From the NCBI RefSeq assembly GCF_002854065.1, contig NZ_CP024147.1: a stretch of DNA of 64,000 nt. One strand, given 5' to 3'. Each line of letters begins with the position of its first letter. Positions within the stretch are counted from its first letter, which is position 1. Origin of the DNA: Escherichia coli. GTDB lineage: Bacteria; Pseudomonadota; Gammaproteobacteria; Enterobacterales; Enterobacteriaceae. Positions 15,519 to 16,679 of this stretch are shown piece after piece. Made by a program: the position numbers and the translations under genes. The notes under the pieces were generated by a model. The model worked only from the letters and a program-made list of their open reading frames with translations, ran no database searches and was not told the origin of the DNA.

Positions 15519-16376
15519 CTATTTTCTTGAAAGGAAAATTCTCAGCGCCTGCATTTTTGCCCCTAAAGTGTTACTCCTGAAGCAGCGAAACAAATCGAAC
15601 CATTTTCCTCTTCCCAGATAGTTTAGGTTGAAGAGATCGGAACGTTTGTAATAGCACATGACAAAAATGCCCTGGTCATCGTCCACAATGTTATTGTTTA
15701 GTGTTATTTTTTGACTTTCCAGAACTAATTTATAGAATTCTTTCCATTTATGCTGTGAACCAACAATTGCGCCCCCAATAATATATACATGATTGCCAAT
15801 CATGAAATCAAAAGCCTGTTGTTGAGATGTAACAGTAAGCCCTTTTTTTATAGTGAAAAGATGCATCTTATTTTCATCAAATGGGAAATCCCAAATTTTC
15901 AATCCTCGAGTCACATTTGGCTTACGGCAATAGCCAAAATCTATCCACGCAACAAGAGGCGTTTTCACTAAGCCCATGTTGATAGCTTTATTTACAAAAT
16001 AGGCCTTAAGGTTACATACCAAAACATACTCTGGTGACCAGTACTCTGGGTTTTTTAATTGTCGAGGCTCAAGTCTATTTGTAAACGACTCATCTTTTTG
16101 AATTTTTTCGATACGACTTCTGATATATCTAAATTTCTTTTTTATATCGATAGCGATAACCGTTGTTGGTTTTCCGTTGCGAATCGCTTCAACCCTTGGT
16201 TTCAAATCGGGAGAAGTGAAAATAATCATCTCATTTTCAAGTACGGCCAGACGCTCAAAGTAACTAAAATAAACATCAACTGAACGAGCTAGTTTTTCAC
16301 GGAACCCTTTATTAGCAGTCCAATCCCCTCTACCAATGTCAAAATATGCAGTGATAATTGTGGTGGATGATTTCAT
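15519..16376 (-). CDS. htrL: HtrL/YibB-family protein of unknown function adjacent to the LPS core locus
   Basis: ORF track 15519..16391 (290 aa); start possibly at MKSSTTIITAYFDIGRGDW; AT-rich; position between kbl and hldD as in E. coli. Confidence 0.8.
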   Translation of the reverse strand: MKSSTTIITAYFDIGRGDWTANKGFREKLARSVDVYFSYFERLAVLENEMIIFTSPDLKPRVEAIRNGKPTTVIAIDIKKKFRYIRSRIEKIQKDESFTNRLEPRQLKNPEYWSPEYVLVCNLKAYFVNKAINMGLVKTPLVAWIDFGYCRKPNVTRGLKIWDFPFDENKMHLFTIKKGLTVTSQQQAFDFMIGNHVYIIGGAIVGSQHKWKEFYKLVLESQKITLNNNIVDDDQGIFVMCYYKRSDLFNLNYLGRGKWFDLFRCFRSNTLGAKMQALRIFLSRK

Positions 16377-16679
16377 TACTAATAAGACCATTAATATAAA
16401 AAAATAATTATATCATAAATATTAACAGAATGTATACTGTATATTATCCATTCAAATGCTTCCGTTATTTACCATACATCGGAATATTGATACTAAAGCA
16501 CTATTCACGTGCAAAACCAACATCCGCCATGAAGGACTAGCTAAAACCCAAACTAGTTTGTTGCAATTAGCATCCTTGCATCTCTATGTAAAGGGCTGAA
16601 GGGATTCGGATGTGATGGTATGATTACAGACATTCATGTCTGAGATTGTCTCTGACTCCATAATTCGAAGGTTACAGTT

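What the first reader, a model, noticed from the sequence alone, without database searches (positions are those of the whole stretch)
15519..16679. AT-rich htrL between kbl and hldD: an apparently foreign gene fixed at the edge of the LPS locus
Seen: the htrL coding sequence and its flanking intergenic regions are strongly AT-rich and codon usage looks atypical (many AAA/AAT/ATA codons) compared with neighbouring tdh-kbl and hldD. The protein has no recognisable catalytic motif that I can assign. Inference: it is a horizontally acquired LPS-associated gene whose biochemical function is still poorly defined. A short palindrome cagacattcatgtctg (16627..16642) lies about 40 bp upstream of hldD and could be an operator or a 5'-UTR hairpin.
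Basis: partly seen in the sequence, partly recalled or inferred. Interest (0 to 1): 0.3.

Follow-up and report, generated by a model that had tools for sequence, protein, structure and literature searches.

The report
Variable LPS-core glycosyltransferase gene htrL
The AT-rich gene is htrL/yibB, a known but uncharacterised E. coli gene. It is not fixed: about a third of strains carry it. It always travels with the R3-type lipopolysaccharide core, as in O157:H7, and is predicted to be a sugar-adding enzyme, which makes it a testable candidate for a core-decorating step whose enzyme has never been identified.

Summary
The composition claim holds. htrL (15519-16376, minus strand) has GC 0.37 and GC3 0.35, against 0.53 and 0.57 for ordinary genes in the window. 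That matches the R3 outer-core genes 3 kb away.

"Fixed" is wrong. Of 5426 complete E. coli genomes, 1950 (36%) carry htrL. 3466 have a 213-bp empty kbl-hldD spacer instead.

The 1.24-kb htrL cassette occupies the same slot in Citrobacter, Cedecea, Atlantibacter and 'Enterobacter'. It is AT-rich there too and under purifying selection, so it is an old accessory cassette rather than a recent import.

Carriage by core type:
- R3: 1363/1363
- K-12: 451/1032
- R1: 140/1833
- all others: about 0

In nine of ten other lineages with R3-like waaL-waaD-waaJ-waaI genes, htrL is also present. In Buttiauxella it lies inside the core operon, between waaI and a waaJ-like gene.

The AlphaFold model (pLDDT 90.6) is a GT-A fold, closest to retaining GT6/GT8 transferases.

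Best reading: an accessory LPS-core side-branch glycosyltransferase. It may be the unassigned alpha-1,3-GlcNAc transferase of the R3 core.

The palindrome exists but is at chance level. It is absent from the empty alleles and from Salmonella, and shows no covariation.

The parts
15245..15348 (.). kbl-proximal conserved block, presumably the kbl promoter/leader. It is shared by the htrL-bearing and empty alleles. The htrL cassette begins immediately after it.
   Evidence: It is 103/104 identical to the ST131 empty spacer. It is conserved in Salmonella, Silvania, Citrobacter and Cedecea, and all sequences diverge after ...ATAAAT(A/C)ACG.
15349..16591 (.). The present/absent segment: a 1243-bp htrL cassette (GC 0.357). 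In empty alleles about 24 bp of unrelated filler takes its place.
   Evidence: Alignment of occupied against empty alleles. The filler has no significant match inside the cassette, and there are no flanking direct repeats or terminal inverted repeats.
15444..15475 (-). Terminator-like hairpin with a T-run downstream of htrL. It separates htrL from the kbl promoter block.
   Evidence: Consensus scan: 14-pair stem, 4-nt loop, T-rich tail. Inverted repeat I3 is 92% complementary.
15519..16376 (-). htrL/yibB coding sequence, 285 aa. An upstream in-frame ATG at 16391 would give 290 aa. Predicted GT-A-fold glycosyltransferase.
16407..16436 (-). Sigma-70 promoter-like site for htrL: TATACA-18-TATAAT with TG before the -10.
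   Evidence: Consensus scan, 10/12 matches. Shimada et al. 2014 (PMC3946193) list the same hexamers as a constitutive RpoD promoter for htrL and flag an H-NS site in this spacer.
16592..16679 (+). hldD-proximal promoter/leader block, shared by all alleles and genera. It contains an extended -10 (TGgTATGAT, 16616-16624). The 16602-16636 stretch exists in two trans-specific classes, an htrL-class and an empty-class.
   Evidence: Alignments A2 and A4. From 16637 onward the sequence is nearly invariant. The E. coli htrL-class differs from the E. coli empty-class at about 13 of 35 positions, but from C. amalonaticus at only 2 of 35.
16627..16642 (+). The palindrome CAGACATTCATGTCTG. It lies just downstream of the conserved -10 and is a feature of the htrL-class allele only.
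19660..24833 (.). R3-type outer-core genes waaL(+), waaD, waaJ, waaY and waaI(-). This is the partner block with which htrL co-occurs.
   Evidence: Gene order and RefSeq names in identical loci. 1363 of 1363 R3 genomes carry htrL. R3-like orthologues lie next to htrL in other genera.

Best explanation
The region is a 1.24-kb accessory cassette between the kbl and hldD promoter blocks. It carries one gene, htrL/yibB, with its own sigma-70 promoter and terminator. HtrL is most likely a cytoplasmic, nucleotide-sugar-dependent glycosyltransferase of the GT-A fold, of the retaining type. It would add a non-backbone (side-branch) sugar to the LPS core oligosaccharide. In E. coli it behaves as a sixth, detached member of the R3-type outer-core gene set. 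Its low GC, rare codons and reported H-NS binding are the standing signature of that whole gene set, not a sign of recent arrival. Shown: the gene's identity, its composition, the presence/absence polymorphism, synteny across genera, purifying selection, the predicted fold, and the association with R3 and R3-like core genes. Inferred: that it is catalytically a glycosyltransferase, that LPS core is its acceptor, and which sugar and linkage it makes.
Confidence: 0.6

Rival explanations
1. One reading: htrL is a foreign gene acquired horizontally by E. coli and now fixed at the edge of the waa locus.
For: Strong compositional deviation. H-NS is flagged on the spacer in Shimada 2014. Homologues occur in low-GC Moraxellaceae, Pasteurellaceae and Firmicutes.
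Against: The gene is not fixed: 36% presence. The same insertion point, orientation and low GC occur in five or more other genera with saturated dS. There are no repeats, IS elements, integrase or tRNA at the junctions. The flanking kbl and hldD of htrL+ strains are ordinary E. coli sequence, not Citrobacter-like.
Confidence: 0.05
2. htrL is a silenced or functionless hitchhiker. It persists only because it is physically linked to the R3 outer-core genes and to hldD, and it does nothing to LPS.
For: It is AT-rich with a reported H-NS site and a weak ribosome-binding region. It is present in K-12 and R1 strains whose core structures are fully accounted for. The K-12 allele is nearly identical to R3-strain alleles (dS 0.006), as expected for a remnant left by recombination. 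A yibB mutant appears in a screen table that highlights mlaA, not yibB; I did not interpret the listed value.
Against: Purifying selection over deep time: dN/dS 0.05, and the same length in every genus. There is a strong constitutive-type promoter. The gene is embedded in the core operon in Buttiauxella. None of 1363 R3 genomes has lost it, although the slot is demonstrably deletable or replaceable in other backgrounds.
Confidence: 0.12
3. HtrL is an enzyme with a different substrate or chemistry. It might modify the inner core (for example hexosamine on a heptose), ECA or another glycan. Or it might be a nucleotidyl- or phospho-sugar transferase rather than a Leloir glycosyltransferase.
Against: The top structural neighbours are consistently retaining glycosyltransferases. 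The gene is placed between waaI and a waaJ-like gene in Buttiauxella. It is tightly coupled to outer-core type, not inner-core type; the inner-core genes are common to all types.
Confidence: 0.2
4. The palindrome 16627-16642 is a functional operator or 5'-UTR hairpin that controls hldD.
For: It sits 3-18 nt downstream of a conserved extended -10 (16616-16624), near the likely transcription start. The stem is kept in E. coli htrL+ alleles and C. amalonaticus, and with one G.U pair in Citrobacter sp. R56.
Against: Its frequency and folding energy are at chance level. The stem is broken in 64% of E. coli genomes (both empty haplotypes) and in Salmonella, Silvania, C. neteri, Ag1 and C. freundii M-21, although all have hldD with the same leader. 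The right arm is invariant as part of a longer conserved block, so no covariation is seen. There is no Rfam match.
Confidence: 0.07

Closest known systems
WlaTB / WlaTC of Campylobacter jejuni 81116 (PF09612; NCBI name 'WlaTC/HtrL family glycosyltransferase')
   Same: Same Pfam family. Both are encoded in a lipooligosaccharide/LPS core locus. Mutants affect LOS, and WlaTB is linked to a HexNAc residue (citing Holden et al. 2012, which I could not read).
   Different: A distant organism and a different core chemistry. No enzymology has been reported for either protein. The E. coli gene is detached from the core operons and is variably present.
CAZy GT6 retaining alpha-1,3-Gal/GalNAc transferases (human ABO GTA/GTB, Bacteroides BoGT6a)
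   Different: 8-12% identity and TM about 0.45. There is no sequence-profile relationship. HtrL has D-F-G where GT6 has DVD/NXN. Membership is not claimed.
GT8 LPS core transferases WaaI/WaaJ/WaaO and LgtC
   Different: No PF01501 match, and hhalign against the window's own WaaI gives probability 0.4%. GT8 enzymes build the backbone, whereas HtrL is dispensable for K-12, R1 and R4 cores.
WabB, the plasmid-encoded R3 core GlcNAc transferase of O157:H7 and S. flexneri (Kaniuk et al. 2004)
   Same: An R3-core decorating enzyme encoded outside the waa operons. It is a precedent for detached, accessory core transferases.
   Different: WabB acts on inner-core Hep III and is plasmid-borne. HtrL is chromosomal, belongs to a different family, and its target is unknown.
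O-antigen and outer-core 'low-GC' cassettes maintained as ancient allelic haplotypes (for example the five E. coli core types)
   Same: Low GC, rare codons, exchange by homologous recombination through conserved flanks, and trans-specific alleles.
   Different: Here the polymorphism is presence/absence of a single gene at the locus edge. It comes with two matching classes of the adjacent hldD promoter.

Membership tests
Pfam PF09612 HtrL_YibB / NCBIfam PRK11346 'protein YibB' | Full-length HMM match above the curated cut-off | tested here: met
   PF09612: 420.6 bits vs cutoff 24.1, profile positions 1-267 of 267. PRK11346: 545.9 vs 342. TIGR02192: 431 vs 265.
GT-A fold nucleotide-sugar transferases | Single Rossmann-like alpha/beta/alpha domain that superposes on solved GT-A enzymes | tested here: met
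GT-A fold nucleotide-sugar transferases | DXD (or variant) metal/diphosphate-binding motif at the end of strand 4 | tested here: inconclusive
   Invariant W-x-D146-F-G follows strand 141-145. Only one acidic residue sits there. A second invariant acidic cluster, D232-D-D-Q, lies before helix 235-244. No residue-level structural alignment was available.
CAZy GT6 | Sequence-level family membership (profile similarity, conserved GT6 motifs) | tested here: not met
   8-12% identity and TM about 0.45. Neither HtrL profile finds any GT6 chain in the PDB sequence search at E<=10.
CAZy GT8 (Glyco_transf_8, PF01501) | PF01501 HMM match or profile similarity to WaaI/WaaJ | tested here: not met
   None of 20 diverse family members hits PF01501. 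hhalign against the window's WaaI gives probability 0.4%.
Glycosyltransferase (functional class) | Demonstrated transfer of a sugar from an activated donor to an acceptor | not testable with these tools
   No biochemical report was found in 104 papers mentioning htrL/yibB or 14 mentioning WlaTC/PF09612.
E. coli R3-type core gene set | Present in every genome that has the R3-specific outer-core genes | tested here: met
   1363 genomes have waaL-waaD(R3). Exactly 1363 cover >=80% of the joint htrL..waaL-waaD query. No R3 genome without htrL appears in a 40-row spread.
E. coli R3-type core gene set | Restricted to genomes with the R3 outer core | tested here: not met
   451 K-12-core and 140 R1-core genomes also carry it. 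C. amalonaticus and L090 carry it with other cores.
Mobile genomic island / insertion element | Target-site duplication, terminal inverted repeats, integrase/transposase or a tRNA at the borders | tested here: not met
   No direct or inverted repeats at 15348/15349 and 16591/16592. Only chance-level repeats occur inside. The only ORF above noise is htrL.
H-NS-bound xenogeneic-type gene | AT-rich relative to the genome and bound by H-NS | tested here: inconclusive
   AT-richness is shown. H-NS binding rests only on the 'HNS' flag for the htrL/hldD spacer in Shimada et al. 2014, PMC3946193. Silencing was not assessed.
RfaH/ops-controlled LPS operon | ops element GGCGGTAG in the 5' leader | tested here: not met
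   Of the five window matches, the only one in the waa region is at 27899-27906, upstream of waaQ. There is none near htrL.

The most novel reading that the evidence does not exclude
HtrL is the long-unassigned UDP-GlcNAc:(galactosyl-I) LPS alpha-1,3-N-acetylglucosaminyltransferase of the R3-type core, as found in E. coli O157:H7, other EHEC and Shigella flexneri. This side-branch step was left without an enzyme when all genes of the R3 waa locus were assigned. The 2019 preprint 10.1101/536201, citing Kaniuk et al. 2004, says this GlcNAc is added 'by an unknown protein'. My recollection of the 2004 abstract agrees. The case rests on five points. Co-occurrence with R3 is 100%. The gene is co-inherited with R3-like waaI/waaJ/waaD/waaL in nine of ten lineages across six genera. 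In Buttiauxella it sits between waaI, which makes Gal I, and a waaJ-like gene, which extends Gal I. It has a retaining GT-A fold nearest to alpha-1,3-HexNAc/Hex transferases that act on 2-substituted Gal. And a family member is linked to a HexNAc residue in Campylobacter LOS.
Probability: 0.3. Interest if true: 0.6.

Novelty: already known. Interest (0 to 1): 0.4.

Why it matters
The gene itself is a long-annotated E. coli gene, so the finding as written is ordinary. The follow-up adds three things.

- **Correction.** htrL is a presence/absence polymorphism, not a fixed gene. The polymorphism comes with two ancient, trans-specific classes of the adjacent hldD promoter.
- **Fold.** A Pfam 'unknown function' family now has a fold-level assignment.
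- **Hypothesis.** There is a concrete, cheap-to-test hypothesis for an enzymatic step of the R3 core that appears to have had no assigned gene since 2004.

The R3 core is the core type of O157:H7, most other EHEC and S. flexneri. Core side branches affect O-antigen ligation, phage receptors, lectin and antibody recognition, and core-based vaccine design.

Tried and rejected
- **Rfam.** Searched 15000-17000 at E<=1: nothing.
- **PDB sequence searches.** Two HtrL profiles returned only noise.
- **Profile comparisons.** hhalign of the HtrL profile against the window's GT8 WaaI found no relation. Pfam scans of 20 diverse members found no second family.
- **AFDB Foldseek.** The library was unavailable.
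- **Cassette borders.** I looked for remnants of the cassette in the 24-bp filler of empty alleles and for repeats at the borders: none.
- **Imported flanks.** I tested whether htrL+ E. coli had imported Citrobacter-like flanks. They had not: kbl and hldD are 83-88% identical to Citrobacter whatever the haplotype.
- **RfaH/ops control.** No ops element lies near htrL.
- **Sigma-32 or sigma-E promoter.** I considered reading the conserved hldD leader as one. Matches by eye were too weak to report. The published heat-inducible htrM/rfaD promoter mapping (Raina and Georgopoulos 1991) was not held.
- **Papers not held.** Holden 2012 and Kaniuk 2004 could not be read.
- **Rejected idea.** 'htrL is needed for a particular outer core in general' fails, because K-12 and R1 cores each occur with and without it.

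Full report
**What is at the coordinates**

The window is the E. coli waa (rfa) region. The gene order is waaH, tdh, kbl (minus strand), then an ORF at 15519-16376 (minus), then hldD-waaF-waaC-waaL (plus). The ORF is htrL/yibB. Pfam PF09612 'HtrL_YibB, unknown function' matches at E=4e-126, and the NCBIfam equivalog PRK11346 'protein YibB' scores 546 bits against a cutoff of 342. The window is 100% identical to E. coli strain 100416. Its outer-core genes (waaL, waaD, waaJ, waaY, waaI at 19660-24833) are those of the R3 core type, the same as in O157:H7.

**Observation check**

The composition claim is correct.
- htrL has GC 0.369 and GC3 0.353. The 46 ordinary genes of the window average 0.526 (sd 0.031) and 0.569 (sd 0.057), giving z = -5.1 and -3.8.
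- A CAI-like index trained on those genes gives z = -2.6.
- AAA, AAT, ATA and AGA are two- to sixteen-fold enriched, and CTG, GCG and CGC are three- to four-fold depleted.
- Both spacers are AT-rich.
- This is not unique in the window. The R3 outer-core genes 3 kb away have the same or lower GC (0.28-0.37) and similar codon scores.

The palindrome CAGACATTCATGTCTG is at 16627-16642 as stated, but it is ordinary.
- The window has 99 perfect 6-bp-stem, 3-6-nt-loop inverted repeats.
- Its fold energy is -8.2 kcal/mol (z = -1.6), and z = 0.0 in 101 nt of context.

**Not fixed**

I searched 15245-16679 against 5426 complete E. coli genomes.
- 1950 genomes hold the whole region.
- 3466 have a 213-bp kbl-hldD spacer instead.
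- The empty spacer has two haplotypes: an ST131-type (about 2980 genomes) and a D8-type (about 483 genomes), whose kbl-proximal half is only 82% identical.

Alignment defines three pieces.
- A shared kbl-proximal block, 15245-15348.
- A 1243-bp present/absent cassette, 15349-16591, replaced by about 24 unrelated bases in empty alleles.
- A shared hldD-proximal block starting at 16592.

The borders have no direct or inverted repeats, and there are no mobility genes. The cassette has its own promoter-like site, TATACA-18-TATAAT at 16436-16407. This is the same promoter that Shimada et al. 2014 list for htrL, together with an H-NS flag for the spacer. It also has a terminator-like hairpin at 15475-15444.

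**Old, not recent**

The same kbl-htrL-hldD arrangement occurs in several other taxa, with HtrL 76-86% identical:
- Citrobacter sp. R56, C. amalonaticus, C. freundii M-21 and Citrobacter sp. Awk 4
- 'Enterobacter' spp. Ag1 and Ap-916
- Cedecea davisae and C. neteri
- Atlantibacter hermannii
- an unnamed Escherichia sp.

.

- In the four such loci measured (Citrobacter sp. R56, C. amalonaticus, C. freundii M-21 and 'Enterobacter' Ag1), htrL is also AT-rich: GC 0.37-0.40 against 0.49-0.54 for the flanking hldD and kbl.
- The cassette begins at the same nucleotide after a conserved 103-nt kbl block.
- Synonymous sites are saturated between E. coli and Citrobacter, while dN is about 0.11. Against the Escherichia sp. 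allele dN/dS is 0.05. Every copy has 285 codons.
- kbl and hldD of htrL+ E. coli are normal E. coli sequence, so the flanks were not imported.
- The empty spacers of E. coli, Salmonella and Silvania are homologous from end to end.
- The 35 nt around the hldD -10 exist in two trans-specific classes. The empty-class reads TGATATGA-TA..., and the htrL-class reads TGGTATGATTA....

So the two E. coli alleles are old haplotypes shared with other genera, moved by homologous recombination. A low-GC ultimate origin remains plausible, since homologues abound in Moraxellaceae, Pasteurellaceae and Firmicutes. However, 'foreign gene fixed in E. coli' is not the right description.

**The palindrome**

It lies just downstream of a conserved extended -10 (TGgTATGAT, 16616-16624).
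- Its right arm belongs to a roughly 45-nt leader that is almost invariant across genera.
- Its left arm exists only in part of the htrL-class: E. coli, C. amalonaticus, and Citrobacter R56 with one G.U pair.
- The left arm is disrupted in C. freundii M-21, Ag1 and C. neteri, in both empty E. coli haplotypes, and in Salmonella and Silvania.
- There is no compensatory change and no Rfam hit.

I regard it as incidental.

**What the protein is**

Sequence methods find nothing beyond PF09612. An AlphaFold2 model built from 53 homologues is confident (pLDDT 90.6, pTM 0.90).
- Foldseek agrees, with GT6 on top, but TM is only about 0.45.
- Residues invariant down to 25% identity are T9-A-x-F-D13-I-x-R16 after strand 1, W144-x-D146-F-G after strand 4 (the DXD position, with a single Asp), and D232-D-D-Q before a helix.
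- There is no signal peptide or membrane segment, as for other cytoplasmic core transferases (inference from the sequence).

**Where it works**

Genomic context points to the LPS core.
- In Buttiauxella agrestis htrL lies inside the core operon, on the same strand: rfaQ-waaG-rfaP-waaB-waaI-htrL-GT8(waaJ-like).
- In Providencia rettgeri it follows waaC.
- In A. baumannii it is in outer-core locus OCL5.
- Campylobacter paralogues WlaTB and WlaTC are LOS genes.

Carriage in E. coli depends sharply on core type.

| Core type | Genomes | With htrL |
|---|---|---|
| R3 | 1363 | 1363 (100%) |
| K-12 | 1032 | 451 (44%) |
| R1 | 1833 | 140 (7.6%) |
| Other (R2, R4, rest) | about 1198 | about 0 (by subtraction) |

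- Many of the htrL+ K-12-core genomes appear to be laboratory K-12 strains. ST131 has a K-12 core and an empty site.
- K-12's htrL differs from an R3 strain's by dS 0.006. R1 strains HH97 and E1654 encode the identical YibB protein to O157:H7. These look like recent recombinants that swapped the outer core but kept htrL.
- Beyond E. coli, R3-like waaL, waaD, waaJ and waaI accompany htrL in nine of the ten lineages examined (eight taxa beyond E. coli itself). Two of these nine were reached from WaaL rather than from HtrL.
- The exception is Silvania, which has an R3-like set and an empty spacer.
- Conversely, C. amalonaticus and locus L090 have htrL with a different outer core.

Linkage (3 kb) and clonal sampling inflate the E. 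coli figure. The cross-genus pattern, at saturated divergence, is harder to explain by linkage alone.

**Mechanism proposed**

HtrL is an accessory glycosyltransferase that adds a side-branch sugar to an R3-type outer core (confidence about 0.6 for 'LPS-core glycosyltransferase').

The sharper hypothesis (probability about 0.3) is that it adds the alpha-1,3-GlcNAc on Gal I.
- A 2019 preprint citing Kaniuk et al. 2004 states that R3 has two GlcNAc residues. The one on Hep III is made by plasmid-encoded WabB. The one on the outer-core galactose is made 'by an unknown protein'. My memory of the 2004 abstract agrees; I could not read the paper.
- No later assignment turned up in the searchable library.
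- From my own knowledge, the nearest structural family, GT6, catalyses the formally analogous reaction: an alpha-1,3 Hex(NAc) onto a Gal that carries an alpha-1,2 substituent.
- O157:H7 and S. flexneri, both with R3 cores, carry the gene.

Against the hypothesis:
- htrL is kept intact in K-12, which has no Gal I.
- Silvania lacks it.
- No family member has been assayed.

**Verdict**

The finding describes a known, annotated gene. Its observation is right, its 'fixed' claim is wrong, and its palindrome idea is unsupported. The added value is the population and cross-genus picture, the fold assignment, and a specific, inexpensive experiment that could close a small but long-standing gap in the R3 core pathway.

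Noticed in passing
window 16637-16679 (within it 16638-16656 GTCTGAGATTGTCTCTGAC): The last ~45 nt before the hldD start codon are almost invariant from E. coli to Citrobacter, Cedecea and (slightly less) Salmonella, far more conserved than synonymous sites of hldD itself. The stretch contains an imperfect hairpin (GUCUGAGA-UUG-UCUCUGAC, one U.U mismatch). Because it never varies, there is no covariation evidence either way. It could be a leader, a protein site or a promoter element of the heat-inducible hldD (htrM) operon.
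   Followed up: partly
window 16602-16636; L001 2606-2670; L092; L093: The hldD -10 region exists in two discrete classes that track htrL presence across genera. The htrL-class reads TGGTATGATTA... and the empty-class reads TGATATGA-TA.... E. coli htrL+ alleles are closer here to Citrobacter (2/35 differences) than to E. coli empty alleles (13/35). This suggests very old haplotypes, or promoter co-adaptation to the AT-rich, H-NS-flagged upstream DNA.
   Followed up: partly
L002 4001-4103 vs window 15245-15347: About 483 E. coli genomes (D8-type empty haplotype) have a kbl-proximal spacer half that is only 82% identical to the common E. coli sequence and more like Salmonella's. Yet their Kbl protein matches the window's at 100% and their RfaD and RfaF proteins carry the same accessions as in K-12. 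This is a sharply bounded divergent patch.
   Followed up: partly
L073 7001-7975; L074 7001-7855: A second clade of HtrL homologues (52-61% identical) sits outside LPS loci as orphan genes. In one E. coli it lies between a TonB-dependent receptor gene and an IS1 copy, near icd. In Salmonella enterica it is a few kb from mig-14 and a GT4 gene, a region resembling the PhoPQ-regulated virK/mig-14 envelope-modification island.
   Followed up: no
L018 834-9996 (Buttiauxella agrestis): The core operon combines Salmonella-like waaB and waaI with htrL and a divergent GT8 (253 bits against the waaI model, below its 461-bit cutoff). These are followed by a 264-aa ORF and a 412-aa ORF on the opposite strand, neither with any NCBIfam match. 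The 412-aa ORF is probably waaL. This looks like an uncharacterised core type.
   Followed up: partly
window 11740-12774: waaH (UDP-glucuronate:LPS(HepIII) glycosyltransferase), just beyond tdh, has intermediate GC (0.46). It is missing from the Cedecea loci (L086, L094, L095) but present in Salmonella, Silvania and Atlantibacter. It is another variably present core-decorating gene flanking the same tdh-kbl pair.
   Followed up: no
hit H109 (E. coli LF3-1, NZ_CM139230.1): One htrL+ genome has an IS5-like ISKpn26 element inserted within the htrL-hldD-waaF-waaC stretch. This shows that the region tolerates insertions.
   Followed up: no
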